Positions 2,778 through 22,363 of a stretch of 61,829 nucleotides of DNA are shown in pieces. The translations under genes were made by a program, and so were the position numbers. How positions within the stretch are numbered: the stretch's first letter is position 1; each line of letters opens with the position of its first letter. The notes below the pieces were generated by a model, which was not told the origin of the DNA, ran no database searches, and worked only from the letters and a program-made list of their open reading frames with translations. Source of the DNA: a virus (lineage: Duplodnaviria > Caudoviricetes); the IMG/VR virus record IMGVR_UViG_3300042934_000981, positions 1 through 61,829 of that record; one strand, written 5' to 3'.

Positions 2778-4276
2778 GCTTCAACCCGATCACGGCCGCC
2801 GGAATCGACCTCGAGCGCGCCAATCTGTCGAAGCAGGCCAAGGCCGAGGTCCTCAAGCGCGTGCAGGCGCGCATTTCGCACTCGCGCCGGGTCTGGTACT
2901 GCCAGCTGGGCCGGAATTGCGACGGCACGCCCCACGAGGGCGCCGAATACCCGCACGCGCAGGACTATCAGTACCCGCCGCTCGGCTTCGACTGGGATAC
3001 CTGGTTCATGATGTGCGGCCGCGGCACCGGCAAGACCCTCTCGGGCTCGCACTGGGTCCGATCGATCACGCCGAAGGTCAGTCGCATCGCGCTCGTCGGC
3101 CGAACGCTCGACGACACCCGCAAGACCATGGTCGAGGGCGAGTCGGGGCTCATCCGCGCGTGCAAGGACGCCGGCGAGACCTACGACTGGAAGCCCGCGC
3201 TGAAGACCTTCACCTTCGCGAACGGCGCGCAGGCGTTCTGCTACACCGCCGAGGAGCCCGACAAGCTGCGAGGCCCCGAGCACGGTGCCGGCTGGCTCGA
3301 CGAGCCCTGCCACATGGAGCTCATCGACGAGATCTGGTCGAACTACAACCTCGGTCTGCGCCAGAAGGGCTACCCGGGCGGCGCCAAGACGCTGCTCACC
3401 TCGAGCCCGTTGCCGGTGAAGTGGACGAAGGAGCGGATCAAGGAGAAGGGCGAGCTCCACGAGGACGGATCGCGGGATCCGTCGACCGTGATGGTCTCGG
3501 TCCCGACCAGCCGCAACATCCACAACCTCGACGAGAGCTACATCCGTCGCGTCGTCGATCCGCTGCGCGGCACCCGCAAGGGCCGGCAGGAGCTCAACGC
3601 CGAGCTGCTCGAAGACGTCGAGGGCGCGCTCTGGACGATCGACAGCTTCCGGTACTTCGACCTCGCCGTCATGCGCGGCACGTTCGACCGCATCGTGGTG
3701 GGTGTGGACCCCGCCGGCTCGACGACGCGGCACTCTGACGAGACCGGCATCATCGTGGTCGCGATCAAGGGCGACAACATCTACGTGCTCGACGACTTCA
3801 CCGGCACCTACTCGCCGGCAGCGTGGGCGGCGAAGGTGATCCTGGCGTACGAGACCTACTCGGCGGATGCCGTCGTCGTGGAGCGCAACTTCGGCGGCGA
3901 CATGGTCAAGGCGAACCTGCGCAACGCCAAGTTCCGCGGCCGCGTCGTCGAGGCCCGCGCCTCGGAGGGCAAGCGCGTGCGCGCGGAACCGACCGCGGCG
4001 CTGTACGAGCAGGAGCTCGCGTACCACGCCCGCGGCGGCAAGCTGCAGGCGCTCGAGGACGAGCAGACCACGTGGGTGCCCGGCATCGGGCCCTCGCCGA
4101 ACCGCATCGACGCGCTGGTGTGGGCCGAGCACGAGATCTCGAAGGGACGCGGGCGCGGCAGCGCGAGCTCGGGCATCCCGCGCGGGCAGATGGGCCCGCC
4201 GAAGACCATGCTGCCGGGCTCGAAGCGCTCGGCCAAGGCCGCCCTACAGATCGCGAGACCCGGGAGCTACCGATGA
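2774..4276 (+). CDS. terL: terminase large subunit
   Basis: Walker A CGRGTGKT, LRGP..GWLDE Walker B, RNase H-like VGVDPA and RIDALVWA; GTG start overlapping upstream stop. Confidence 0.95.
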   Translation: MSFNPITAAGIDLERANLSKQAKAEVLKRVQARISHSRRVWYCQLGRNCDGTPHEGAEYPHAQDYQYPPLGFDWDTWFMMCGRGTGKTLSGSHWVRSITPKVSRIALVGRTLDDTRKTMVEGESGLIRACKDAGETYDWKPALKTFTFANGAQAFCYTAEEPDKLRGPEHGAGWLDEPCHMELIDEIWSNYNLGLRQKGYPGGAKTLLTSSPLPVKWTKERIKEKGELHEDGSRDPSTVMVSVPTSRNIHNLDESYIRRVVDPLRGTRKGRQELNAELLEDVEGALWTIDSFRYFDLAVMRGTFDRIVVGVDPAGSTTRHSDETGIIVVAIKGDNIYVLDDFTGTYSPAAWAAKVILAYETYSADAVVVERNFGGDMVKANLRNAKFRGRVVEARASEGKRVRAEPTAALYEQELAYHARGGKLQALEDEQTTWVPGIGPSPNRIDALVWAEHEISKGRGRGSASSGIPRGQMGPPKTMLPGSKRSAKAALQIARPGSYR

Positions 4277-9813: not shown

Positions 9814-11577
9814 ATGAAGTTCAAGATGCCCGAGAGCCTCGATGGTCTCTCGATCGAAGAGCTCGACAAGCTGCACGCCGAGGCGTGGGCCGAGTACACG
9901 AGCATCGCTGCGAAGGACGACGCCGAGGTCACGGACGCCGAACTCGCCGACCTGGACGCGCTGCGCGCCGACCTCGACACGATCGGTGAGGCCCAGACCT
10001 CGCTCGAGACGGCCGCCGAGGACCGCGCATCCAAGCTCGCTGCTGCGCGCAGCCACATCGCCGAGGCAGACGCCGAAGGCGACACCGACGCCGAGGGCGA
10101 CGGAGACGACGACGTCGAGGACGAAGGCGAAGGTGACGCCGAGGGCGCCGCTGACGACGACGTCGAAGACGAGGGCGCCGACGCGGAGGCAGAAACGAAG
10201 GAGAAGGAACTCGTGACCGCTTCCGCGACCCGCCGCAAGACGGCGGCTGCCGCAGCTTCGAAGGCCCCCAAGCCCAACGAGATCATCCCCCCGGCGCCGA
10301 GCGTCGTGCTCGCGGCTGCCGGCCCGATGGCGGGCGGAATCGTGGCCAATCACGAGTTCGGCACGCTGACCGACGTCGCGAAGACGTGGAGCGAGCAGGT
10401 CTCGAAGTCGCCGGCTGCCGGCGCATTCTTCGAGGACCTGCGCGACCTGCGCCCCGTGATGGAGCTCTCCAAGGCTCACTCCCGTGCGGGCTTCCTGAAG
10501 ATCAAGAAGAACGCCGGCGAGTTCACGACGGGTCTGGACGACTCGGTCGAGGCGCAGCTCGCGGTCATCGACGCCGCGGCCGACGAGCGCAAGCGCTTCG
10601 GCTCCGAGGGCCTCGCTCGTCGCGCGGTCGCGGCAGCCGGTGGCTGGTGCGCGCCGTCCGAGACGCTCTACGACTTCTGCTCGTACGAGACGGTCTCGGG
10701 CATCCTCGACATCCCGACGGTCACCATCCGCCGCGGTGGCATCAACTTCACGAAGGGCCCGGACTACGCGTCGATCGCGCCGACCTGGGGCTTCCTGCAG
10801 ACCGAGGCGCAGGCTGAGGCCGGCACCGCGAAGGTCTGCTACGAGGTGGAGTGCCCGCCGTTCGCGGAGACCCGGCTCGACGCCGTGGGCTTCTGCGTCA
10901 CGGCCGGCGTGCTGACGGCATCGCCCGGCGGCTACCCGGAGCTCGTCCGTCGCGTGCTCGAGATCGGCCTCACGGCCCACGCCCACAAGATCAACCGCGA
11001 GGTGATCACTCGTATCCAGACCCTCATCGGCGCAGCGACCAACTACGTCGAGATCGGCGCGGCCACGAGCGACCTCCTGCAGGCGCTCGAGATCGCGGCG
11101 CTCCGCCTTCGCTACTCGCTGGCGATGGCAGAGAACGCGACCGTGGAGGTCGTTCTCCCGCTGTGGGTCAAGGCGGCCATCCGTGCCGACCTGTCGCGCC
11201 GCACCGGCGTGGACATGCTGGCCATCGGCGACGCGGAGATCACGCGCTGGCTGTCGGCTCGCGGCATCCGCGCGCAGTTCGTGTACGACTACCAGGACCT
11301 CGCGACCGGCAACACCGGCGCGTGGACCGCGCTGCCGACCACGCTCGAGTTCATGATGTACCCGGCGGGTGCGTTCATCAAGGGCACCAGCCCGGTGATC
11401 GACCTCGACACCATCTACGACTCGGTGGGCCTGTCGACGAACACCTACACCGCGGCATTCTTCGAGGAGGGCCTCCTCGTCGCCAACCGCTGCGGCTTCG
11501 GCGTCCGCTACTCGGTGGACCTGGGCGCGCTGCAGGGCCGCACGGGTGCCGCCAACATCGGCGAAACCGTCATCTGA
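9814..11577 (+). CDS. major capsid protein with N-terminal acidic scaffold-like domain
   Basis: AAGGWCAPSETLYD, KVCYEVECP motifs; long Asp/Glu/Ala N-terminal region; position. Confidence 0.9.
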   Translation: MKFKMPESLDGLSIEELDKLHAEAWAEYTSIAAKDDAEVTDAELADLDALRADLDTIGEAQTSLETAAEDRASKLAAARSHIAEADAEGDTDAEGDGDDDVEDEGEGDAEGAADDDVEDEGADAEAETKEKELVTASATRRKTAAAAASKAPKPNEIIPPAPSVVLAAAGPMAGGIVANHEFGTLTDVAKTWSEQVSKSPAAGAFFEDLRDLRPVMELSKAHSRAGFLKIKKNAGEFTTGLDDSVEAQLAVIDAAADERKRFGSEGLARRAVAAAGGWCAPSETLYDFCSYETVSGILDIPTVTIRRGGINFTKGPDYASIAPTWGFLQTEAQAEAGTAKVCYEVECPPFAETRLDAVGFCVTAGVLTASPGGYPELVRRVLEIGLTAHAHKINREVITRIQTLIGAATNYVEIGAATSDLLQALEIAALRLRYSLAMAENATVEVVLPLWVKAAIRADLSRRTGVDMLAIGDAEITRWLSARGIRAQFVYDYQDLATGNTGAWTALPTTLEFMMYPAGAFIKGTSPVIDLDTIYDSVGLSTNTYTAAFFEEGLLVANRCGFGVRYSVDLGALQGRTGAANIGETVI

Positions 11578-11642
11578 GTCATACCGGGGGCGTCCTAGCC
11601 CAGGGCGCCCCCGGACTATGACCTCGAGAGGAGGTGGGCACC

Positions 11643-12395
11643 ATGGCAGATCCGACCAACCTCGTCGAAGCGCCGAGGCGACGCCCCCGCAAGGGCGGAA
11701 TCAAGACCGTCGCCAACGTCGTCGAGAACACCGGGCGGATGTTCGCATCCGAGCGGCTCGACTGGCTCGAAGAGGGATGCACTTTCCCCAAGGCCGCTCC
11801 CGGCCTGTGCTGGGGCGAGGTCGTCGCCGCCGCCGACAAGGAGCTCGACGGGATCGGCAACAGCTTCTCGGGGCTCACGTTCGCCGGCTACACCGGCGTC
11901 GAGTGCCTCGACCTGGATGGCGCCGCCGACTTCGAGGCACGCGCACGTCGCGCGCTCGAGCAGGGCGAGGACCGGTTCGTGGAGGCCAAGCTGATCGCGA
12001 TGCTCGCGGCGGCGGATGCCACCCCGACAGCCGGCACCGCCTGGGTCGCGCAGATCGCGGCGGCAGAGGAGGCGGCTGACGCCAACTACCTCGGCCTGCC
12101 GATCTTCGTGATGAGCCGCGAGGACGCTGCGGTCGCGGCAGCTGCCGGCGCTCTGGTCGGAGATCCCGACCAGCCGATGTACACCCGCAACGGTTCGCCC
12201 GTCCTCGCGACGAGCGCGGCCGCATCCGGGACGTTCTACGTCACCGGCGACATCACCCTCTGGATGGGCCCCGTGGCAGCGACCACCGCGACTCACCCGC
12301 AGCAGAACACCGCAATGGCGCTGGCCGAGCGTGCGTACGCGCTCGGCATCGACTGCGACTATGTCGTGGCCTACGGCGTCACGATCGCACCGTAG
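11643..12395 (+). CDS. virion structural protein
   Basis: GAGGAGG RBS; follows capsid gene; ALAERAY..DC C-terminus. Confidence 0.7.
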   Translation: MADPTNLVEAPRRRPRKGGIKTVANVVENTGRMFASERLDWLEEGCTFPKAAPGLCWGEVVAAADKELDGIGNSFSGLTFAGYTGVECLDLDGAADFEARARRALEQGEDRFVEAKLIAMLAAADATPTAGTAWVAQIAAAEEAADANYLGLPIFVMSREDAAVAAAAGALVGDPDQPMYTRNGSPVLATSAAASGTFYVTGDITLWMGPVAATTATHPQQNTAMALAERAYALGIDCDYVVAYGVTIAP

Positions 12396-12404
12396 GAGCA
12401 GATC

Positions 12405-12881
12405 ATGGCTGAGAACGAAGAGACCCAGGAAGAGCGAGAGCTCAACGTGCTCGGCGAAGCCTTCATCGCCGGCCGCTCGCGTGCGAACGCGCAGCGCGCC
12501 CTCGATGCGGCGGATGCCGTGGAGATCTCGCAGGTGCGCGTGCGCGCCGTGCGCGACGGCTACTTCGCACCGCCCGAGGTGGTCGACAAGTACGCCGAGA
12601 TGCTGCAGGCGGAAGAGGAGGAGGCGGCCGCTGCGAAGGCGGACGCTGACGCCGAAGCCGCAGCGAAGGCCGAGGCCGATGCCGAGGCCGCTCGCAACCC
12701 CGACGAGACGGCGAACGCCGAGACGCCTGCCGAACCCGAGGTCCCGACCTCGAAGTGGAGCGTGAAGCAGATCGACGACTGGGCCGCGAACCAGACCCCG
12801 CCCATCGTCTTCGACGAAGGCGCCGTCAAGGCCGACAAGCTCCGCGCGATCGAGACCGCGGTGAATCAGAAGAAGGAGTAG
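12405..12881 (+). CDS. hypothetical protein with C-terminal HeH/Rho-N-like motif
   Basis: AGGAG RBS; Ala/Glu linker then WSVKQIDDWA...KADKLRAI. Confidence 0.65.
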   Translation: MAENEETQEERELNVLGEAFIAGRSRANAQRALDAADAVEISQVRVRAVRDGYFAPPEVVDKYAEMLQAEEEEAAAAKADADAEAAAKAEADAEAARNPDETANAETPAEPEVPTSKWSVKQIDDWAANQTPPIVFDEGAVKADKLRAIETAVNQKKE

Positions 12882-12884
12882 GCA

Positions 12885-13814
12885 ATGCCCACGAAGTGCA
12901 TCAGCCTCGTTCGCGGTCGTCGCATCCGCCTCACGCGCCTGGACGGCTGCGGTCGTCCGGTGTACGGCGAGGCGTCGACGGTCGTGAGCAAGGGCTTCAT
13001 CAGCGTCGCGTTCACCGCGAACACGACGGAGACCGAGGAGATCAACGTCACCAACGCCGCCGGCGAGGTGTGCGTGTTCGAGCCGGCGACCACGACCCTC
13101 ACGGGCTACTCGGTCGAGGTCCAGTTCTGCGAGGTGGACCCCGAGCTGCTCGCTCTGGTCACCGGCCAGGACGTCTACATCGACGCGTTTGGCAACGTCG
13201 TCGGATTCAAGGTCAACACGAAGGTCGACCTCGAGGGCCAGGGCTTCGCGCTCGAGCTCTGGGCGGGCGCCGGCAACTCCGACGCGTGTGCGACCGAGGG
13301 GGCGCAGGGCAGCTACGGCTACCTGCTCCTGCCGTACCTCAAGGGCGGCATCCTCGGCGACTTCACGGTGGAGGGGACCAACGTCACCTTCACGATCACC
13401 GGAGCGGCCACTCGCGACGGCAACAACTGGGGTGTCGGTCCGCACCCGGACGTCATGCTGACGGCCGGCTCGCTCCCCGGGCCCCTCGTCGAGGCGCTCG
13501 AGGCAGACGACCACCTGCTCACGATCATCACGCAGGTGGCACCGCCCGAGGCCCTCTGCGGCACCCGTCCGCTGCTCGACCCGAGCGCGACCGCGATCAC
13601 CTCGATCGCGGGCGTCGCAACCGGTCTGGACGTCGACTTCGACACCACGCCGCCCGCTGAGGACCCGGTCTACTGGGACTTCGGCGATGGCACGTGGGAC
13701 TACGTCGCCGCACCCGGAGATGCCTCGCACACCTACGCGGCGGCGGGCACGTACACCGTGCGCGCTTCCACCAACGGCGTGTGGCAGACGACCAGCGTCA
13801 CGGTCTCTGCCTGA
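12885..13814 (+). CDS. major tail protein with C-terminal PKD (Ig-like) domain
   Basis: RLTRLDGCG, FCEVDPEL, FALELW; WDFGDG...HTYAAAGTYTV PKD signature. Confidence 0.9.
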   Translation: MPTKCISLVRGRRIRLTRLDGCGRPVYGEASTVVSKGFISVAFTANTTETEEINVTNAAGEVCVFEPATTTLTGYSVEVQFCEVDPELLALVTGQDVYIDAFGNVVGFKVNTKVDLEGQGFALELWAGAGNSDACATEGAQGSYGYLLLPYLKGGILGDFTVEGTNVTFTITGAATRDGNNWGVGPHPDVMLTAGSLPGPLVEALEADDHLLTIITQVAPPEALCGTRPLLDPSATAITSIAGVATGLDVDFDTTPPAEDPVYWDFGDGTWDYVAAPGDASHTYAAAGTYTVRASTNGVWQTTSVTVSA

Positions 13815-13825
13815 CGCTGGCCACA

Positions 13826-13866
13826 CGAAAGCCCCTCACCCGTTGCTCCCGGGTGAGGGGCTTTCG
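13826..13866. terminator. bidirectional intrinsic terminator
   Basis: perfect 17-bp stem CGAAAGCCCCTCACCCG-7-CGGGTGAGGGGCTTTCG between convergent major tail and Ro60 genes. Confidence 0.85.
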
Positions 13867-13871
13867 CTTGC

Positions 13872-15446
13872 TCAGAAACCGCGGCTGAACTCGGTCAGCA
13901 GGGCCGGCACGTCGGCGCCGAATCCTGCGATGTCGAGCATGCCCGGGTCCTTCGGGTCCGCGATCGAGAACCGCGTGGCCGTGGTGGCCAGCACTGCCAG
14001 CTTCGCCGGGATGCCCGTCTCGCGACGGTAGCGGCGCAGCACGTCCGGGACGTGGTAGCCCTGGTTCACCTCGTTGTCCGTGATCATCACGAACGTGTCG
14101 ACCGGGATCTGCTTCGCCCGTGCGTACTCGATCAGCGCGCTCGGCTCGGTCGCGTTCCACCGTCGGCCGTGCTCGCGAGCGATCTGCATCGCGTTCTCGA
14201 GCGTGGTCAGCTTGTGGATCCCGATCTCGGTCACGCCGCTCGCGAAGCCCACCGCGAGGGATGCCGGCTCGGAGACGATGATCTTCATGGCGAGGACCAT
14301 CGCGATCTCCGAGTTCATCAGCCCGACCGGCGTGAGGGACCACATGGACGGGCTGACGTCGACGCCGACGAGCGTGCGCTTGCCGGCAGCCGGCGCCGTC
14401 TCGAACGCCTTGTAGAAGGCCGCGTTGAGCGCCTCGACGATGCCCATGTTCGGCGTGAACGTGCCGCCGGAGCGGCGCGAGCCCTCGCCGTAGGACCGCA
14501 GCGCCATCATGATCGCGAGCGGGTGCAGGCGAGCACGACGCAGCGCCTCCTCGTCGTTGAACAGCCGGCGCACAGCGCGCGCGGCATCGTTCGAGAAGTA
14601 GCTGTCGAAGACGCCGACCTGCGTCATGCGGCTCAGCTGACGGAGCATCGCGCCCATCGGCAGGCGCCCCTTCGCGATGAGCAGCTCCCAGGTCTTCGGG
14701 TCGCGCAGCACGTCGTCCGGCAGCATCTCCCACGACGCGCCGGCGTCGATGAGCTCCGCGGCCGGCCGCTTCTCCTCGAGCGCCCGGATCAGCGTCGGCA
14801 CGGATGCGCTGACCATGAGGTGCTGGCCGCGAGCCCACTGCAGAGCCTTCTCGTGAGTGCCCGGGACCTCGCCCTTGAGCGCGTGGCTCATGTCGATGAG
14901 GTCCTTCTGGCTCCACCCGTCGCGCTGGCCGTACTTCGCCAGCTGGTACGTGAGCGAGTCGGCGTCGCGACCGAGGTACCAGTCGGCGACCGCCCGGCGC
15001 CAGGAGCGGCTCACGCCGCCGCCGAGCGCCTTGTGGTAGCGCGCCCACATCAGCAGGTGGCTGCCGGTGCGGACGATCCGACCGAACTCACGGTACGCGG
15101 CCGCACGCGCCTCGCCCGGCTCGGCCGTGCAGGCCGCGAGCGCGAAGAGCTGCGGGTTCACCTTCGGCGCCAGGCCGCGCTCGGAGACATCGGCGATGAG
15201 CTCCACGAGCTCGAGCGGCTTCTCCGCCGCCAGCTGGAAGATGATGTCGGCGTTCTCGCGAGTGTACTCGCGCTCGCCCTGGTAGAACGTGCCGCCCTCG
15301 GTGCCGATGATCAGGAAGCGTCGAGCCGCCGCGAGCAGCGAGATCTCGAACACCGCGCCGCCGTCGTGGTTCTTGACGGTGCCCGGGATCGTGTCGGTGG
15401 CCGAGCGCGGTCCTGCCGCTCGCGTGAATGCGTCGTTGCGTGCCAT
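13872..15446 (-). CDS. rsr: Ro60/Rsr orthologue (TROVE + vWA RNA-binding protein)
   Basis: 524 aa; KN..GG..F, RRFLIIGTEGGTFY, KYGQRDGWSQKDL, LPMGAMLRQLSRM, ARLHP; vWA MIDAS DVSPS, ITDNE, MLDIAGF; GAAGGAG RBS. Confidence 0.95.
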   Translation of the reverse strand: MARNDAFTRAAGPRSATDTIPGTVKNHDGGAVFEISLLAAARRFLIIGTEGGTFYQGEREYTRENADIIFQLAAEKPLELVELIADVSERGLAPKVNPQLFALAACTAEPGEARAAAYREFGRIVRTGSHLLMWARYHKALGGGVSRSWRRAVADWYLGRDADSLTYQLAKYGQRDGWSQKDLIDMSHALKGEVPGTHEKALQWARGQHLMVSASVPTLIRALEEKRPAAELIDAGASWEMLPDDVLRDPKTWELLIAKGRLPMGAMLRQLSRMTQVGVFDSYFSNDAARAVRRLFNDEEALRRARLHPLAIMMALRSYGEGSRRSGGTFTPNMGIVEALNAAFYKAFETAPAAGKRTLVGVDVSPSMWSLTPVGLMNSEIAMVLAMKIIVSEPASLAVGFASGVTEIGIHKLTTLENAMQIAREHGRRWNATEPSALIEYARAKQIPVDTFVMITDNEVNQGYHVPDVLRRYRRETGIPAKLAVLATTATRFSIADPKDPGMLDIAGFGADVPALLTEFSRGF

Positions 15447-15472
15447 GAGGTTGCTCCTTCGGTGGGAATGAC

Positions 15473-15505
15473 GAAGCGCCCCGACACTGACCGTCGGAGC
15501 GCTTC
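15473..15505 (-). terminator. 13-bp hairpin between the Y RNA array and the Ro60 RBS (attenuator or processing site?)
   Basis: GAAGCGCUCCGAC-GGUCAGU-GUCGGGGCGCUUC on the - strand. Confidence 0.5.
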
Positions 15506-15583
15506 TGGGCCTTGGCCGTCACACACTGTGGGAGCAGCGTGCGCATCGGACCTCGTGGGGCGAGGTGTCAGTCCAAAGATGAA

Positions 15584-15649
15584 GCGCGGATATGGGAGTG
15601 CGACCGGGAGGATCTACCAGAAAGATAACCGATCGCGTGCGACCCGCAC
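15584..15649 (-). ncRNA. Y RNA-like copy 4 (minimal, about 66 nt, no tRNA-like domain)
   Basis: GUGCGG/CCGCGC outer stem, GUCG/CAUAU, GCGAUCGG/CCGGUCGC inner stem, UCGGUUAUC motif. Confidence 0.75.
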
Positions 15650-15655
15650 GTAGGG

Positions 15656-15803
15656 TTCAACGGATGTGGGGTGAGGCCGGGAAGGGCTTGCGCCCCAGGG
15701 TCTTAGGCCACTAGACGACGTCGTCACCGAAGTGACGCCGGCGGGATTCGAACCCGCGTACCCGCTATGCGAGAGATAACCGACGCTCGATCGACCCGTT
15801 GAA
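15656..15803 (-). ncRNA. yrlA: YrlA-class Y RNA copy 3 (permuted tRNA-Glu-like)
   Basis: UUCAACGG/CCGUUGAA stem; T arm GCGGG-UUCGAAU-CCCGC, then acceptor-like stem closed by UUCG, then D arm GUC-UAGUGGCCUAA-GAC. Confidence 0.85.
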
Positions 15804-15808
15804 AGGGG

Positions 15809-15939
15809 TTCCTGGATATGGGGTGACACCGGGATTAAGTGCTCTGCCGCTGAGCTACCGGGGACATCAGTCCTCGGGCGGGATTCGAACCCGCGACCCC
15901 TCCATTAACAGTGGTAACCGATGTCGGTCGACCCAGGAA
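15809..15939 (-). ncRNA. yrlA: YrlA-class Y RNA copy 2 (permuted tRNA-Asn-like)
   Basis: UUCCUGG/CCAGGAA stem; T arm GCGGG-UUCGAAU-CCCGC, acceptor-like CCGAGGAC-UGAU-GUCCCCGG, D arm UA-GCUC-AGCGGCA-GAGC. Confidence 0.88.
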
Positions 15940-15945
15940 GTGTGT

Positions 15946-16076
15946 GCAGCGGATGTGGTGAGGAACCGGATGCGCTCCGTGAGGAGCGTCCCCAAGCCAA
16001 GGGGAAACGGTGGAGGCTTGCGCCCACTCACCGACGGGAGTCGAACCTGCGATAACCGATTCTCGCGACCCGCTGC
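15946..16076 (-). ncRNA. Y RNA-like copy 1 (divergent tRNA-like domain)
   Basis: GCAGCGG/CCGCUGC stem, GUCG/CACAU, UCGGUUAUC, T-loop GGUUCGACUCC, three further hairpins. Confidence 0.8.
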
Positions 16077-16106
16077 GAAGTCTCTGTGTAGTTTTCCGGG
16101 GTACTC

Positions 16107-16135
16107 AATGTATCGCGCACCTGCCGAGCCCGCAA
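16107..16135 (-). promoter_or_regulatory. sigma70-type promoter of the Y RNA-Ro60 cassette
   Basis: TTGCGG-17-TACATT on the - strand, about 30 nt upstream of copy 1. Confidence 0.7.
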
Positions 16136-16199
16136 GTCTATCTCGCTACGGAGTTGCGCGCAGTGAGAGAATGACCCCGACCACTGACACGGAGGCACC

Positions 16200-17300
16200 A
16201 TGAGCACCGTCTGCTACCCCCCGGGCACCGACTGGTCGTGCAGCGGCCTCTCGGACGAAGAGATCGCCGCGCTCGACCCCGATCGTGTCGCCATGGCCGA
16301 GGGGCTGGCGTGGATGACGCTGTCGGCGCTGTCGGGCGGGCAGATCGCATACTGTCCCATCACGATCCGCCCGTGCACCGCCAGCTGCGCGCCCCCCGGG
16401 ACCTGGCTGGTCGCGCCCGTCGGCGCCGGCGCGCTCGCATCGCTCGGCACGCTGCGGACTGCCGGCTTCCAGCCGAACATGCGCAACGGCGTCTGGTACA
16501 ACTCGTGCGGCTGCGGCCAGGGCTCGGGCTGCGGCTGCGGCCAGATGCCTGTGGTCGAGCTGCCCGGTCCGGTCGGCGGCATCGTGTCGGTCACCATCGA
16601 CGGCGCCGAGCTCGACCCGAGCGCCTACCGCGTCGACAACGGCAGGCTGCTCGTGCGGCAGGATGGCGGGGTCTGGCCCACCCACCAGAACCTCGCGAAT
16701 CCGTCGCCCACCCAGTACGAGCCGATCGTCATCGAGGGCAACGCCGGACCCATCACGCTCACCCGGAACGGGCAGACGGTGGAGGTGCGGGCCGAGGTCA
16801 CCGACGATGGGAGCACCTACGCGCCGGCCGGCACCAACCCGTGGCCCCCGAGCGAGTACGTCCAGTTCGACCTCGTCACGCTGTACGACGACGGCGAGAT
16901 AGTGATGTATGGCGCCACCGGCGACATCGGTAAGACGGTCACGGGCACGTATCAGACGGTCGCCCCGTCGGACGGCCTGGACGTGACCGGCGTCTTCGAG
17001 GTGACCTACTACCTCGGGGTGGCCCCGAACAATGTCACGCTCGCAGCAGCCGGCGCGCTGGCGGGCGAGTGGTACAAGGCGTGTGGCGGTGACGCGTGCG
17101 CCCTGCCGGCCAACGCGATCAGCGTGAGCCGGCAGGGCGTCTCGATGGAGCTGCAGGCCGGCATCTTCCCCGGCGGAAAGACGAACATCCCGATCGTCGA
17201 CGGACTGCTCGAGGTCTACAACCCGCATGGGCTGAGGTCGGCGCCGGTGATCGCGTCGCCCGACACCCTCCGTCCGCGCATGACCACCGTGAGGGGCTGA
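16200..17300 (+). CDS. head-to-tail adaptor
   Basis: GGAGG RBS; CPITIRPC, LPGPVGGIVSVTIDG..L..SAYRVDNG.LLVRQDG..WP, C.LP...SVSRQGVS. Confidence 0.8.
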   Translation: MSTVCYPPGTDWSCSGLSDEEIAALDPDRVAMAEGLAWMTLSALSGGQIAYCPITIRPCTASCAPPGTWLVAPVGAGALASLGTLRTAGFQPNMRNGVWYNSCGCGQGSGCGCGQMPVVELPGPVGGIVSVTIDGAELDPSAYRVDNGRLLVRQDGGVWPTHQNLANPSPTQYEPIVIEGNAGPITLTRNGQTVEVRAEVTDDGSTYAPAGTNPWPPSEYVQFDLVTLYDDGEIVMYGATGDIGKTVTGTYQTVAPSDGLDVTGVFEVTYYLGVAPNNVTLAAAGALAGEWYKACGGDACALPANAISVSRQGVSMELQAGIFPGGKTNIPIVDGLLEVYNPHGLRSAPVIASPDTLRPRMTTVRG

Positions 17301-18970: not shown

Positions 18971-21900
18971 GTGGCGGTGGCGACCACGATCGGCCGCGTC
19001 GAGTTCATCGTCGGCCTGGATGGGAACCAGCTTCCCGGGCAGGCGCGTCGCCTGGCGAACCAGATGGAGGCTGCCGGCAAGAAGGCCGGCGACGGATTCG
19101 CGGACGGGTTCGACTCGACGTTCGATCAGCGTCTCTCCAAGATCGGCAGCCGCTTCGCCAACAGTCTGAGCGAGAAGGGCAAGCTCGCCGGCACGAGTTT
19201 CTCGAACGACTTCGAGAACGTGCTGCAGACCCGCTTCCGGCGGATGCAGCAGAACCTCGCGGACATCCTGGCCGACAAGGACGCCTTCATCGACTATGCC
19301 CGCGGCTTCTCGACCGTGGGCGAGGCCGTCGAGCAGCTCAACGACGATCTCGACCGGCTGCGCGGGCAGACGTACATCAACGACGAGGGCAAGGAGCGGC
19401 TCGTCCTCACGGCGCAGGCCGCACGCAACTTCGGTGTCGAGATCAACCGGCTCGGTCGCGAAGCCGACGAGTACCTCACGAAGCAGCGCGAGCTCGACGA
19501 CCAGACGCGGGACTTCGAGGCCAACTGGGCGCGACTCACGCGCGTGCTCGGCGACGGCGACGCCTTCCGCCAGGTCGCGCTGCGTGTCGGCGGCACGGGC
19601 GAGGCGTTCAACCGGCTGCGCAGCGAGCTCGAGGGTGTCGGGGACGCACTGGGCAAGAGCCGCATCGAGGTCGAGGGGTACGTCGACGCACTCGAGCGGA
19701 CGCGGGATGCCGCGGACCGCGCCAACGAGCGGATGCACGCCATCGAGGGCGGCGCGACCAGCATGGAGCGCGCCTTCACCCGGCTCTCCCGCGCTGTGCG
19801 CTCGCCGTGGCGCAACCTCGACAACGACGTGCGGCTCGTGCTCGGGCTCATCATCGGCGCCGCCGATCAGATCGGCACGCTCGGCTCGGCGATCGGTGCC
19901 GGCCTCCTGGGCGTCGGATCCGCCGGCGCATCTGCCGTCGTCGGAGTCGCGGGCCTCGTGTCGGTGTTCTCGACCCTCAACAAGGAAGTCGACGACCTCC
20001 CGCCGGCACTGCGTGACGTGCGCCTCGAGGCGGCACGGTTCAGCGACGCCTTCCAGCGCGCCGGCGAGGTCATCTCGCGGGGCGCGTTCGGCGAGATGAA
20101 CGGCGCGCTGGACTCGCTCTCGGGCACCCTCCGTCGGCTCGACCCCGAGCTCGCCGGCGTCGGCCGCGCCACGGGGCGCCTGTTCGCCAACCTCGCGGAC
20201 GGGCTCGAGGAGGGCACCGACGGATTCGAGGAGCTGCGCAAGCTCCTGCGCAACAGCGAGAACGACATCGACCGTCTCGGCGACGTCACGGGGACGTGGG
20301 GCCTGGCCCTCCTCCGCGCGTTCAACCGCGCGAACCCGCTCGCGCAGGACCTCTTCAACTGGCTCGAGCGGGTCGGCGACCAGTTCGACAGCTTCGGTCA
20401 GTCCAACGAATTCGACCGGTGGCTCTCGCGCTCGCGCGACGTGTTCGCCTCGCTCGGCGGGCTGCTCGACACCGTCTCGCGCGGGCTCAACGACCTGGTC
20501 ACGCCCGAGGCTGTCGGCCGCACCACAGAGCTGCTCGACAACCTGACCGAGTTCACGCCGGCGCTCATCGGGGTCCTCGACGTCGTCGGCCGGCTCGATC
20601 CGCTCGGCCTGCTCGCAGAGGCGCTCAGCGCGGCGGGCGAGGCGATCGGCCCTCTCCTGCCGTCGCTCGGCGAGCTCGCGGACGCGCTCAACCCGCTGCT
20701 CGAGGCCGCCATCACCGGGATCGCAGACGGCCTCGGCATCGTCGCGCAGGTCGCGAAGCCCGCCGTCGAGGGGCTCACCGGCCTGCTCGAGGCGATGCCG
20801 CCCGGGGCCATCTCCGCGGCCGCGCTGGGACTCGTCGCCGTCGGCACCGCGCTGCTGTCGATCAAGGCGGCTGCCGGCCTGTCCGGCGCAGCGGGCGCGC
20901 TGATCGACTTCACCACGCGGGCGAACACCGCGGCGACAGCGAGCGGCCGGCTGGTCGGCCTCGTCGGCAAGGCGGGCCTGGCCGGCGCCTTCCTGGCTAT
21001 CTCGCTCTCGATGCCCGGACTGATCAAGGGCATGACCGACTACCTCGACGAGATCTCCGGCATCGACGCCGCCACGCAGAAGGCGGTCAAGAGCCAGGAC
21101 AGCTTCCTCGACGCGCTCAACACTGTCAACCCCAATCTCGACTTCACGGCCGAGTCTGTGCGCACACTCACGGACGCCCTCGGCGAAGCCGATGGCGAGT
21201 CGAACAACTTCAACCGGGCTCTCGAGGGCTTCGGGCCCACGGCGACCACAGCCGAGTACGCCATCGCGCAGCTCGAGCGAGGACTCGGCGCCCTCGACGA
21301 GCAATTCGCGACGCTGACGATCGACGAGCAGACCGCACGCTTCTCGGCATGGGCAGATCAGCTGCAGCTGACCGACGAGCAGGTGCTCACCATGATCGAG
21401 GAGATGCCGCTCTTCAAGGCGGCGCTCGAGGAGGCGGCCTCTGCCGCGGACGGCAACGCGACCAGTCAGGAGATCCTGGCCCTGGCCATGGGCGAGGTTA
21501 CGGTCGGTGCCGGCGGCGCGCTGACGGCCGTCACGAACCTCGGCGGCGGGGCGACGGTCACGGCTGAGCAGCTCGACGGCCTGGCCGACAGCCTCTCGAC
21601 GTCCAACAGCCTCTTCTTCGAATCGCGTGACGGAGCGCGTGAGTACGAGGCCGCGCTCGACACCCTGCAGGACTCGATCGCGGAGAACACCGCGACACTC
21701 GACATCGGCACCGAGGCCGGCCGGCTGAACGAAGAGGCGATCGACCGGCTCGCGCAGTCCGCGCTGGACTACGCCGGCGATCTCGTCCGCACCACGGGCG
21801 ACCAGAACCTCGCGAACGACGCGATCAAGCGCGGGCGTGACGACCTGATCAACCTCCTGGACGAGTTCGGCATCACGGGCAAGGCGGCTGAGGACTACGC

Positions 21901-22363
21901 GAACAAGCTCGGCCTGATCCCGACGAACATCTGGACCACGATCGAGATGCTCGGCATCGACGCGGCTCTGGACGAGGCTCGCCGGCTGCGCGAGACCGTG
22001 CTCAGCATCCCCACGCGGCGGTCGGTCGAGGTCTTCGTCACCAGTGGCGGATGGAACCCGAATGGCGACCGGCCGATGGCATCCGGCGGCACCCTCTACG
22101 GGCCCACGCGCATCCTCGCGGGTGAGGCGGGGCCCGAGGCGATCGTGCCGCTGAACCGGCCGCTCAGCCAGGTGGACCCGAGCGTGCGCGCGCTCAGCGC
22201 GTTCGCACAGGGGCTTCGCCCGATGGCGTCCGGCGGTGTCGTCGGCGGCGGCAAGCAGATCGTGATCGAGGCAGGCGCTATCGTGGTCGAAGACCGCTCG
22301 GGCGATCCCCGTCGCACGGGAAACGAAGTCTTCCGGCGGCTCATCGAAGACGTCGCCAGCTAG
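18971..22363 (+). CDS. tape measure protein
   Basis: 1130 aa, Ala/Gly/Leu-rich helical; C-terminal MASGG...GEAGPEAIVPL. Confidence 0.93.
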   Translation: MAVATTIGRVEFIVGLDGNQLPGQARRLANQMEAAGKKAGDGFADGFDSTFDQRLSKIGSRFANSLSEKGKLAGTSFSNDFENVLQTRFRRMQQNLADILADKDAFIDYARGFSTVGEAVEQLNDDLDRLRGQTYINDEGKERLVLTAQAARNFGVEINRLGREADEYLTKQRELDDQTRDFEANWARLTRVLGDGDAFRQVALRVGGTGEAFNRLRSELEGVGDALGKSRIEVEGYVDALERTRDAADRANERMHAIEGGATSMERAFTRLSRAVRSPWRNLDNDVRLVLGLIIGAADQIGTLGSAIGAGLLGVGSAGASAVVGVAGLVSVFSTLNKEVDDLPPALRDVRLEAARFSDAFQRAGEVISRGAFGEMNGALDSLSGTLRRLDPELAGVGRATGRLFANLADGLEEGTDGFEELRKLLRNSENDIDRLGDVTGTWGLALLRAFNRANPLAQDLFNWLERVGDQFDSFGQSNEFDRWLSRSRDVFASLGGLLDTVSRGLNDLVTPEAVGRTTELLDNLTEFTPALIGVLDVVGRLDPLGLLAEALSAAGEAIGPLLPSLGELADALNPLLEAAITGIADGLGIVAQVAKPAVEGLTGLLEAMPPGAISAAALGLVAVGTALLSIKAAAGLSGAAGALIDFTTRANTAATASGRLVGLVGKAGLAGAFLAISLSMPGLIKGMTDYLDEISGIDAATQKAVKSQDSFLDALNTVNPNLDFTAESVRTLTDALGEADGESNNFNRALEGFGPTATTAEYAIAQLERGLGALDEQFATLTIDEQTARFSAWADQLQLTDEQVLTMIEEMPLFKAALEEAASAADGNATSQEILALAMGEVTVGAGGALTAVTNLGGGATVTAEQLDGLADSLSTSNSLFFESRDGAREYEAALDTLQDSIAENTATLDIGTEAGRLNEEAIDRLAQSALDYAGDLVRTTGDQNLANDAIKRGRDDLINLLDEFGITGKAAEDYANKLGLIPTNIWTTIEMLGIDAALDEARRLRETVLSIPTRRSVEVFVTSGGWNPNGDRPMASGGTLYGPTRILAGEAGPEAIVPLNRPLSQVDPSVRALSAFAQGLRPMASGGVVGGGKQIVIEAGAIVVEDRSGDPRRTGNEVFRRLIEDVAS

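What the first reader, a model, noticed from the sequence alone, without database searches (positions are those of the whole stretch)
15656..15803. Copy 3 mimics a different tRNA (Glu-like D arm plus possible CUC anticodon loop)
Seen: D arm UCGUCUAGUGGCCUAAGAC closely resembles bacterial tRNA-Glu D arms. GUUAU-CUCUCGC-AUAGC (15764-15780) can form a 5-bp stem with a 7-nt loop centred on CUC, upstream of a perfect T arm. The acceptor-like stem is capped by cUUCGg, and an extra GGGC-GCAA-GCCC hairpin follows the D arm. An alternative fold (CUCGC-AUA-GCGGG) also exists. Inference: the array was diversified by capturing distinct tRNA isotypes into one Ro-binding scaffold, i.e. a panel of tRNA decoys.
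Basis: partly seen in the sequence, partly recalled or inferred. Interest (0 to 1): 0.8.

Follow-up and report, generated by a model that had tools for sequence, protein, structure and literature searches.

The report
Y RNA with tRNA-Glu-type D arm
One of four small RNAs encoded beside the Ro protein gene of a soil phage has a tRNA-like part whose D arm copies that of glutamate tRNA, but its supposed CUC anticodon loop is most likely a coincidence.

Summary
Window 15657-15802 (minus strand) is the third of four Y-RNA-like modules upstream of a phage Ro60 gene (13872-15446, minus). The D arm is truly tRNA-Glu-like. Against all 53 distinct tRNAs of one actinobacterium, the three tRNA-Glu score 17, 17 and 15 of 20; the next isotype scores 12. 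The exact 19-mer occurs in bacterial tRNA-Glu genes. It also occurs in Y-RNA arrays of Microbispora and Frankia. This D arm defines a recurrent module class: 16 members were collected, usually beside a canonical YrlA-type module. Rfam's YrlA model does not detect it.

The CUC "anticodon" hairpin is not supported. Its predicted pair probability is about 0.005, against 0.92-0.98 for the rival CUCGC-AUA-GCGGG hairpin. It keeps the rival hairpin through three double compensatory changes. Its first G belongs to a conserved scaffold pair.

The "capture of isotypes" idea is partly right in evolutionary terms. Two bacterial members keep a tRNA-Glu-like anticodon arm. Gln-, Leu- and class-II-like D arms occur in other arrays. 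But the class is inherited, not captured by this phage, and a decoy function is untested.

The parts
15657..15802 (-). Copy 3: complete Y-RNA-like module with a tRNA-like domain of the Glu D-arm class
   Evidence: Covariance model R1 scores 110.3 bits, E 3.7e-24. The model includes this sequence. Boundaries come from the 9-pair outer stem.
15794..15802 (-). Outer stem P1, 5' strand (UCAACGGGU). It runs into the GGGUCGA motif (15791-15797), which is presumed to contact Ro.
   Evidence: Pairs 9 of 9 with 15657-15665. Helix 1 is 91.7% paired, and all 9 pairs change on both sides across 92 modules. Ro contact is inferred from Chen 2014 (PMC4201824, section 6).
15657..15665 (-). Outer stem P1, 3' strand (AUCCGUUGA), within the conserved CAYAUCC end motif
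15780..15788 (-). Inner stem P2, 5' strand (GAGCGUCGG). It is equivalent to the 3' strand of a tRNA anticodon stem in the YrlA model.
   Evidence: MFE fold. The closing G-C pair is G-C in 74 of 92 modules (columns 28/261).
15673..15680 (-). Inner stem P2, 3' strand (CCGGCCUC)
15775..15781 (-). Scaffold motif GGUUAUC (the YUAY of YrlA). It is present in all four modules of the array, including copy 4, which has no tRNA-like part.
   Evidence: 70 distinct modules carry the motif; 37 continue with CU and 16 with CUC.
15761..15773 (-).
   Evidence: Pair probabilities 0.92-0.98. L002 has CAUCC-AAA-GGAUG at the same place and length, with three pairs changed on both sides.
15764..15780 (-).
   Evidence: In L002 it becomes GUUAU-CUCAUCC-AAAGG, with 3 of 5 pairs.
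15741..15757 (-). T arm GCGGG-UUCGAAU-CCCGC. It is preceded by C (position 48), which can pair with G15.
   Evidence: T helix 98.9% paired.
15719..15740 (-). Acceptor-like stem: 7 pairs (one G.A mismatch) plus 2 further pairs, capped by UUCG (15728-15731)
   Evidence: ARAGORN drawing. The helix covaries.
15700..15718 (-). U8-C9 plus the D arm GUCU-AGUGGCCUA-AGAC, tRNA-Glu type
   Evidence: D stem 100% paired in 16 of 16 modules, with U-A in 12 and A-U in 4 at one pair.
15683..15696 (-). Extra hairpin GGGGC-GCAA-GCCCU between the D arm and P2. It is specific to this phage lineage.
   Evidence: Also present in L002 modules at 2146-2287 (GCAU loop) and 1752-1894 (GAAA loop). Absent from the other 14 Glu-type modules.
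15809..15939 (-). Copy 2: canonical YrlA-type module. D arm UAGCUCAGCGGCAGAGC; V hairpin CCA-CUGUUAA-UGG.
   Evidence: Rfam YrlA 39 bits, E 6.4e-7, below the gathering score of 69. R1 84 bits.
15946..16076 (-). Copy 1: Y module with a degenerate T arm and no recognisable D arm
   Evidence: R1 29.6 bits
15583..15650 (-). Copy 4: short Y module without a tRNA-like domain
   Evidence: R1 27.4 bits
13872..15446 (-). Ro60 ortholog gene, immediately downstream of the array on the same strand
   Evidence: Pfam vWA_Ro60 1.6e-33 and TROVE 2.5e-30; PHROG 850 RNA-binding protein
16098..16139 (-). Upstream block conserved with L002 and L003 (AGACTTGC.GGCT ... GTACCCC): a candidate promoter of the array
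   Evidence: Alignment A4. The consensus sigma-70 scan found no promoter, so the role is inferred.

Best explanation
Copy 3 is a Y RNA of the YrlA kind. The array and the Ro60 gene probably form one minus-strand cassette. The module closes with a 9-pair outer stem that carries the presumed Ro-binding motif. It encloses a circularly ordered tRNA-like domain: V hairpin, T arm, closed acceptor-like stem, D arm.

Its D arm is of the tRNA-Glu type rather than the near-invariant D arm of canonical YrlA. It belongs to a distinct, recurrent module class that usually sits beside a canonical module. The element upstream of the T arm is a variable (V) hairpin, here CUCGC-AUA-GCGGG. It is not an anticodon arm reading CUC.

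Most likely mechanism (inferred):
- Ro60 binds the stem.
- The L-shaped tRNA-like domain presents a Glu-type elbow to a tRNA-binding partner. That partner differs from the one addressed by the canonical module, so the array gives Ro60 several adaptors.
- The 7-pair acceptor-like stem may be cut by RNase P, as in M. smegmatis YrlA.

Shown: anatomy, class membership, covariation, D-arm isotype specificity.
Inferred: transcription, Ro binding, the partner, processing.
For: Context:
- A Ro60 gene lies directly downstream on the same strand.
- There are four modules with shared end motifs.
- All four match model R1: 110.3, 84, 29.6 and 27.4 bits.

Fold:
- Across 92 distinct modules, 89.1% of cells pair, against 61.2% in shuffles (0 of 500 reach it) and 36-52% when slid. 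That alignment is fitted to the model.
- On the MAFFT alignment of 16 Glu-type modules, 80.3% pair against 67.2% (0 of 500).
- U8, A14, G15/C48, G18G19 and the UUCGAAU T loop are present.

D arm:
- tRNA-Glu scores 17, 17 and 15 of 20; the next isotype scores 12.
- 8 of 52 distinct module D arms are assigned to Glu by a margin.
- Exact 19-mer matches fall in tRNA-Glu and in Microbispora and Frankia Y arrays beside TROVE genes.

Class:
- 13 distinct pattern matches in viral or metagenome data plus 3 bacterial.
- A canonical module shares the locus in most cases.
- A Ro homolog was found in 11 of 15 loci by tblastn.
- 0 of 9 Glu-type modules hit Rfam YrlA at E<=0.01, while canonical neighbours do. 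Copy 3 has no YrlA hit at E<=10.

V hairpin:
- Pair probability 0.92-0.98.
- Three double compensatory changes against L002.

Possible RNA:
- A 163-base contig of an RNA library is identical to 15708-15870 and bridges copies 2 and 3. This is a weak hint only.

Precedents:
- YrlA anatomy, and RNase P and CCA addition in M. smegmatis (PMC4201824; passages and sections 5, 6, 10 read).
- A phage Ro60-Yrl-PNPase complex (PMC12135203; passages read).
Against: - The un-permuted copy 3 is called tRNA-Glu(ctc) by ARAGORN at its default threshold. Only 6 of 400 V-shuffled controls get the Glu label, although 175 of 400 are still called tRNA.
- Bacterial class members keep tRNA-Glu-like anticodon arms: G082 has the loop CUCUCAA; G079 has the stem UCGCC/GGCGG with a 4-base variable loop. 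The CUC hairpin could therefore be a relic that still forms.
- Only one close homolog (L002) was available for the covariation argument.
- Folding energies ignore tertiary contacts, modifications and proteins.
- The whole-module fold is only modestly better than shuffles (z -1.81; 6 of 200 shuffles fold as well).
- Copy 3 fails the Rfam YrlA model and the 'nearly invariant D stem' of YrlA.
- Ro binding, expression and processing were not measured.
- RNA-library contigs can derive from DNA.
Confidence: 0.78

Rival explanations
1. Copy 3 is a whole tRNA-Glu(CUC) mimic. A 5-pair, 7-base anticodon-like hairpin presents CUC next to a Glu D arm, so the RNA acts as an isotype-specific decoy for factors that read tRNA-Glu.
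For: - The hairpin can be drawn at 15764-15780.
- ARAGORN labels the un-permuted sequence tRNA-Glu(ctc); 6 of 400 shuffles get that label.
- CUCUC equals positions 32-36 of the tRNA-Glu(ctc) loop CUCUCAA in Microbispora, G079 and G082.
- A bacterial module (L237) has exactly that loop.
Against: - Pair probability is 0.004-0.005, and the isolated hairpin is unfolded.
- L002 has CAU in place of CUC and 3 of 5 pairs, and it compensates for the rival hairpin.
- Among 50 scorable modules, only the window itself has 5 of 5 pairs and 1 other has 4; none of the other 12 Glu-type modules scored in this register has more than 3.
- Pairing is no better than shuffled or slid controls.
- The first G is taken by the conserved P2 closing pair.
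- The CU(C) tract after GGUUAY is a scaffold feature. It is also found in modules without any T arm.
- Its variable loop would be 6 bases, where tRNA-Glu and the G079 and G082 modules have 4.
- The V and T segments are not Glu-like.
Confidence: 0.08
2. Relic reading. The Glu-type class arose from tandem tRNA-Glu genes: T side and anticodon arm from the first gene, D side from the second. This follows the dimeric-tRNA model cited in bioRxiv 10.1101/312249. Copy 3's CUCUC is a decayed remnant of the CUCUCAA loop with no present role. This is compatible with the best explanation as to present function.
For: - Model R1 matches tandem tRNA-Glu genes over positions 28-108 at 47-50 bits.
- The G079 module stem UCGCC/GGCGG compares with its own tRNA-Glu stem CCGCC/GGCGG. 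The G082 loop is CUCUCAA. Both have a 4-base variable loop.
- 35 of 53 modules have a hairpin of at least 3 pairs closing a 7-base loop. U is at loop position 2 in 25 and a purine at position 6 in 32. Shuffles give 20.1, 5.3 and 10.3, and 0 of 500 reach the observed values.
Against: - V loops of the other Glu-type modules read Ser, Cys, Asp, Lys, Gln or Gly triplets.
- The hairpin register differs between copy 3 and the family.
- The modules are related, so the counts are not independent.
- The pyrimidine tract after GGUUAY occurs in all classes.
Confidence: 0.4
3. Copy 3 is a working circularly permuted tRNA-Glu gene. Its transcript is processed into a translating tRNA.
For: The 3' half precedes the 5' half. 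The acceptor stem has 7 pairs.
Against: - ARAGORN finds no tRNA in the window, and the Rfam tRNA model stays below its gathering score.
- The module is enclosed by the Y-RNA stems shared with modules that have no tRNA part.
- The anticodon arm is unsupported.
- There is a mismatch in the acceptor stem and an extra hairpin at position 26.
Confidence: 0.02

Closest known systems
YrlA (Rfam RF02553): bacterial Y RNA with a tRNA-like domain (Salmonella, M. smegmatis, mycobacteriophages)
   Same: - Encoded next to, and on the same strand as, a Ro60 ortholog.
- A stem with a GNCGAA-like motif.
- The order V, T arm, closed acceptor-like stem, D arm.
- tRNA core nucleotides (PMC4201824 sections 5, 6).
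   Different: - The D stem and loop are GUCU-AGUGGCCUA-AGAC, not the near-invariant GCUC...GAGC.
- No match to RF02553 even at E<=10.
- An extra GCAA hairpin lies after the D arm.
- The Ro motif reads GUCGAU.
M. smegmatis YrlA, cleaved by RNase P and CCA-tailed (PMC4201824, passages of section 8)
   Same: A seven-pair acceptor-like stem, which that paper names as the feature allowing RNase P cleavage. Actinobacterial setting.
   Different: Cleavage of copy 3 was not tested. Its stem has a G.A mismatch and two extra pairs under a UUCG cap. The D-arm class differs.
Thermus phage phiLo Yrl1/Yrl2 with phage Ro60 and host PNPase (PMC12135203, passages read)
   Same: A phage-encoded Ro60 with Y-RNA-like genes just upstream. 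More than one Y RNA per phage.
   Different: No occurrence of 'tRNA-like' in that paper's text (term search). The phage group and host differ. Binding was shown there and not here.
Bacterial tRNA-Glu
   Same: The D arm is identical or nearly so: 18 of 19 bases to Microbispora tRNA-Glu(ctc). Exact matches exist in four tRNA-Glu genes.
   Different: - Permuted order and a closed acceptor stem.
- V and T segments are not Glu-specific.
- No supported anticodon arm.
- The variable region does not have 4 bases.

Membership tests
YrlA-type Y RNA | Lies within about 4 kb of a Ro60/TROVE gene on the same strand | tested here: met
   The module at 15657-15802(-) lies 211 bases upstream of the Ro60 start at 15446(-).
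YrlA-type Y RNA | GNCGAAN0-1G motif near the 5' end (presumed Ro contact) | tested here: inconclusive
   Copy 3 has GGGUCGAUCGAG. GUCGAU matches 5 of 6 bases of GNCGAA. Binding was not testable.
YrlA-type Y RNA | T arm, closed acceptor-like stem and D arm in that order, with tRNA tertiary-pair nucleotides | tested here: met
YrlA-type Y RNA | Nearly invariant D and T stem sequences (PMC4201824 section 10; bioRxiv 10.1101/312249) | tested here: not met
   The T stem conforms. The D stem is GUCU/AGAC against GCUC/GAGC.
YrlA-type Y RNA | Scores at or above the Rfam RF02553 gathering score | tested here: not met
   No hit at E<=10 for copy 3. Copy 2 scores 39 bits against the gathering score of 69.
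YrlA-type Y RNA | Bound by Ro60 in vivo | not testable with these tools
   Needs immunoprecipitation or a gel-shift assay.
tRNA-Glu (functional or full mimic) | Glu-type D arm | tested here: met
tRNA-Glu (functional or full mimic) | Five-pair anticodon stem with a seven-base loop carrying YUC | tested here: not met
   Drawable, but with probability about 0.005. It is not conserved in L002 or any other module.
tRNA-Glu (functional or full mimic) | Standard cloverleaf order detectable as a tRNA gene | tested here: not met
   ARAGORN finds 0 genes in the window. The Rfam tRNA model stays below its gathering score.
tRNA-Glu (functional or full mimic) | Four-base variable loop, as in the tRNA-Glu genes seen here | tested here: not met
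tRNA-Glu genes have 4.
tRNA-Glu (functional or full mimic) | Recognition or charging by GluRS | not testable with these tools
   The identity rules are recalled, not tested. An aminoacylation assay is needed.

The most novel reading that the evidence does not exclude
Ro-linked Y-RNA arrays of actinobacterial phages and some Actinobacteria are panels of circularly permuted tRNA mimics derived from particular isotypes. Each was born from tandem tRNA genes. The isotypes are Glu, Gln, Leu, a class-II type with a long variable arm, and an Asn-like canonical type with a conserved CUGUUAA loop. Each type addresses Ro60 (and a nuclease such as PNPase) to a different isotype-specific tRNA-binding protein, or titrates that protein. 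Copy 3 is the Glu member, and its CUCUC tract is a relic of the tRNA-Glu(CUC) anticodon loop.
Probability: 0.25. Interest if true: 0.8.

Novelty: new variant of a known kind. Interest (0 to 1): 0.55.

Why it matters
The partner of the tRNA-like domain of bacterial Y RNAs is unknown. Published work stresses that its D and T stems are nearly invariant, and predicts one elbow-reading effector (PMC4201824 section 10; bioRxiv 10.1101/312249, passages).

A second, conserved module class has a D arm specific to tRNA-Glu and sits beside the canonical class in the same arrays. This suggests more than one partner. It also provides natural D-arm swaps with which to fish for those partners.

There is a practical point as well. 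Annotation pipelines call the 5' parts of such modules tRNA genes. Examples are tRNA-Asn in phage SM23, tRNA-Thr in prophiGD43A-5, and ARAGORN calls in Microbispora and Frankia. Meanwhile Rfam's YrlA model misses the Glu class.

Tried and rejected
- **Close relatives by protein.** The search for related loci with the single Ro protein found no relative. With alignment A1 it gave 29 viral loci, only two of them close (L002, L003). Relatives at 62-77% Ro identity exist, but they lie in collections I could not fetch.
- **Broad pattern scan.** Most were tandem tRNA genes, so it was replaced by a scaffold-anchored pattern.
- **Scaffold-anchored pattern in genomes.** It found nothing in genome contigs, because bacterial members use CGGCUAC rather than CGGUUAYC.
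- **Sigma-70 scan.** No promoter was found. The one terminator-like site lies inside copy 4 and was disregarded.
- **Laid runs.** Most pieces were short matches to T arms of other organisms. No variation fell inside copy 3, so they gave no covariation test. Parts without cover are not used as evidence.
- **The 736-aa minus-strand ORF downstream of Ro.** It has no Pfam or PHROG match. It is probably the shadow of plus-strand genes conserved in L003, so I rejected it as a cassette member.
- **ARAGORN as an isotype test.** The label comes only from the anticodon, and 175 of 400 V-shuffled controls are still called tRNA. I judged it weak.
- **Literature.** Four searches found no description of Glu-type or multi-isotype Y-RNA modules. 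However, the reviews PMC10870794, PMC6047535 and PMC6542706 are not held, and the supplements of PMC4201824 (Fig. S1, Tables S1-S2) were closed and not asked for. They may show such variants.
Full report
**What the window is**

The window is a complete viral record with terminal repeats, 61,829 bases. The ORF at 13872-15446 on the minus strand is a Ro60 ortholog: Pfam vWA_Ro60 at 1.6e-33 and TROVE at 2.5e-30, and PHROG 850. Its closest cultured relative is the Ro-like protein of Microbacterium phage FuzzBuster at 41.7% identity. In all, 354 phage records hold a homolog.

The 650 bases upstream on the same strand hold four modules. Each starts with GGGUCG...CGGUUA and ends with CAYAUCC. The finding is the third module.

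The Ro cassette lies on the opposite strand to the structural genes around it:
- major head protein, 9814-11577 (+)
- head-tail adaptor, 16200-17300 (+)
- tape measure, 18971-22363 (+)

A long minus-strand ORF below Ro is probably the shadow of plus-strand genes conserved in L003.

**Checking the observation**

ARAGORN finds no tRNA in the window. No Rfam family reaches its gathering score. At a permissive threshold, Rfam's YrlA model matches copy 2 (39 bits, E 6.4e-7, gathering score 69) but not copy 3.

**Is the D arm Glu-like beyond chance?**

I collected the complete tRNA set of Microbispora catharanthi. The Rfam tRNA model gave 57 matches. These were fetched and typed by ARAGORN as 53 distinct sequences.

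Local alignment of copy 3's 20-base D segment ranks the three tRNA-Glu first (17, 17, 15). Gln scores 12 and Ser 11. The variable-plus-T segment is best matched by Gly, Leu and Arg, with Glu not on top. The Glu likeness is therefore real but confined to the D arm.

The exact 19-mer occurs in 9 stretches among 185,579 species genomes:
- 4 lie in tRNA-Glu
- 1 lies in tRNA-His
- 1 lies in tRNA-Asp
- 3 lie in no tRNA

Those three are Y-RNA arrays of Frankia nepalensis, M. catharanthi and M. rosea. In two of them I confirmed a TROVE gene just downstream.

**A recurrent module class**

A scaffold-anchored pattern (CGGUUAYC, T loop, Glu-type D loop) matched 8 viral stretches, 0 bacterial genomes and 10 metagenome stretches. 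After removing duplicates this gave 13 distinct modules, including the window.

With the three bacterial members I aligned 16 modules (A2) and built covariance model R1. R1 found 95 matches over the window and 43 loci. These include all four window modules (110.3, 84, 29.6 and 27.4 bits) and the canonical modules of the same arrays.

Support for the fold:
- On 92 distinct modules, 89.1% of cells pair, against 61.2% in shuffles (0 of 500) and 36-52% when slid. That alignment is fitted to the model.
- On the MAFFT alignment of the 16 modules, 80.3% pair against 67.2% (0 of 500).
- The D stem pairs in 16 of 16, with a U-A to A-U swap in 4.

Most loci with a Glu-type module also hold a canonical module. 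A Ro homolog was found by tblastn in 11 of 15 such loci. Several of the rest are short contigs or have divergent TROVE genes.

Rfam's YrlA model hit 9 canonical modules at 36-51 bits, and none of 9 Glu-type modules at E<=0.01.

In a sample of 151 genomes of the class of G001 (Microbispora catharanthi), 8 had an R1 match at E<=1e-6. Three of those were Glu-type or Glu-like modules, counting the centre genome. Among the 29 Ro-encoding viral loci found by protein, two carry such a module: L002, and L027 with a variant loop. The class is therefore real but a minority.

**The CUC hairpin**

Four lines of evidence go against it.

2. *The closest homolog.* The module at L002 2146-2287 comes from a phage whose Ro is 63% identical. 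It has the same outer stem and the same length between CGGUUAUCU and the T stem. It reads CAUCC-AAA-GGAUG where the window reads CUCGC-AUA-GCGGG. Three of the five pairs change on both sides and stay paired.
Only the window has 5 of 5 pairs, one has 4, and 48 have 3 or fewer. On the 16 Glu-type modules, pairing is 51.3% against 48.1% shuffled (52 of 500 reach it) and 41-60% when slid.
The tract after GGUUAY is a pyrimidine-rich scaffold feature. 37 of 70 modules continue with CU and 16 with CUC, including modules with no T arm.

- Un-permuted in a script, copy 3 is called tRNA-Glu(ctc) by ARAGORN at its default threshold (relaxed thresholds).
- With the V region shuffled, 175 of 400 constructs are still called tRNA, so the call rests mainly on the other arms. 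Only 6 of 400 are labelled Glu.
- Two bacterial members point to descent from tRNA-Glu.
  - The orphan module of G079 has no Ro within 1.5 kb. Its V hairpin is UCGCC-CUUUUCC-GGCGG followed by a 4-base variable loop. The anticodon arm of its own tRNA-Glu(ttc) is CCGCC-CUUUCAA-GGCGG.
  - The G082 module has the loop CUCUCAA, the loop of its own tRNA-Glu(ctc).
- R1 also matches tandem tRNA-Glu genes across the junction. This fits the dimeric-tRNA origin proposed for YrlA (cited in bioRxiv 10.1101/312249, passages read).

Against coupling of D arm and anticodon: the 16 Glu-type modules, un-permuted, are labelled Ser (3), Cys (3), Asp (2), Gly (2), Met, Lys, Gln, Glu (the window only), one with an undetermined anticodon and one not called.

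My reading is that the class probably descends from tRNA-Glu. The anticodon-side hairpin now drifts as a variable arm. In the window's lineage it has become a triloop hairpin.

**How it most likely works**

By homology with YrlA (PMC4201824 sections 5, 6, 10; bioRxiv 10.1101/312249), Ro60 binds the stem. The tRNA-like domain is the effector side.

Copy 3 keeps the nucleotides needed for the L shape: U8, A14, G15 with C48, G18G19, and the UUCGAAU loop. The distinct, conserved D arm suggests a partner different from that of the canonical module, so the array would provide several adaptors for one Ro60.

The seven-pair acceptor-like stem is the feature that lets RNase P cut M. smegmatis YrlA (PMC4201824, passages of section 8). 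Cleavage here is an inference.

A block upstream of copy 1 is conserved in L002 and L003 and may be the promoter, although the consensus scan found none. One 163-base contig of an RNA library from another study is identical to 15708-15870 and spans the copy 2/copy 3 junction. This is a weak hint of a polycistronic transcript, because DNA can contaminate such libraries.

A phage Ro60 that assembles with its own Y-like RNAs and host PNPase has been reported (PMC12135203, passages read).

**Novelty**

Y RNAs with tRNA-like domains next to Ro, in phages too, are known. New here, as far as my four literature searches show, is a conserved class with an isotype-specific (Glu) D arm, coexisting with the canonical class and invisible to Rfam's model. 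Further D-arm types occur in other arrays.

Three reviews were not held, and the supplements of the 2014 paper were closed, so such variants may already be pictured there.

Noticed in passing
window 15809-15939 (-); L127 12114-12243; L158 1308-1440; L168 4828-4959; L102 6809-6941; L015 800-925; L252 2142-2273; L253 2136-2267: In canonical modules the hairpin upstream of the T arm has the conserved 7-base loop CUGUUAA. This is the anticodon loop of the Microbispora tRNA-Asn. It is closed by different 3-pair stems (CCA/UGG, CUC/GAG, UCU/AGA, CAC/GUG, CGC/GCG), so the loop sequence itself looks selected. More generally, 35 of 53 modules have a stem of at least 3 pairs with a 7-base loop. U at position 2 and a purine at position 6 are far above shuffled levels.
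   Followed up: partly
L253 2138-2204 (phage SM23); L254 2477-2555 (prophiGD43A-5); L168 4888-4960; L164 5777-5849; L237 locus: Deposited annotations (tRNA-Asn, tRNA-Thr tgt) and ARAGORN calls (tRNA-Asn, tRNA-Asp, tRNA-Pro) fall on the 5' part of Y-RNA modules just upstream of Ro genes. They are likely false tRNA genes.
   Followed up: partly
L161 1-3606 (metagenome contig): One contig holds a Ro gene (174-1778) and about ten modules with at least four D-arm types:
- canonical
- Glu-type (3220-3350)
- Leu-type UGGCGGAAUUGGCAGACGC (3373-3519; 17 of 19 to tRNA-Leu)
- a class-II-like UGGCCGAGUGGUUUAAGGC module with an additional long-variable-arm-like hairpin (2909-3070)

   Followed up: partly
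L008 and L025 1603-1737; also L024 2120-2261, L028 1883-2014, L030 2250-2383: Modules with a D arm of the URGUGUAAUGG type. The L008/L025 D arm is 18 of 18 identical to the D region of tRNA-Gln(ctg) of genome G079.
   Followed up: partly
L235 1501-1635 (G079) and L237 1501-1630 (G082): - The orphan Glu-like module in G079 has a near-tRNA-Glu anticodon stem and no Ro gene within 1.5 kb. An NmrA-like gene lies downstream.
- The G082 module has the loop CUCUCAA and a degenerate D arm.

   Followed up: partly
L254 2644-2777 (M. abscessus prophage prophiGD43A-5): This module has the canonical D stem GCUC/GAGC but the Glu-type D loop AGCGGCCUA. It is an intermediate between the two classes, in a named prophage.
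   Followed up: no
window 15683-15696 and about 16005-16022 (-); L002 1752-1894 and 2146-2287: Short G+C hairpins capped GCAA, GAAA or GCAU recur in this phage lineage. They follow the D arm in copy 3 and in two L002 modules. In copy 1 the hairpin sits in place of the acceptor stem. Their role is unknown.
   Followed up: no
window 11616-16165: The Ro-plus-Y-RNA cassette is a reverse-oriented insert inside the plus-strand structural gene block. The 736-aa minus-strand ORF at 11616-13826 has no family match and overlaps plus-strand genes conserved in L003.
   Followed up: partly
window 15541-15914: Near-identical contigs occur in a rhizosphere metagenome of another study (X4: 15541-15691 with no differences; 15764-15914 with one). 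An RNA-library contig (X10) is identical over 15708-15870.
   Followed up: partly
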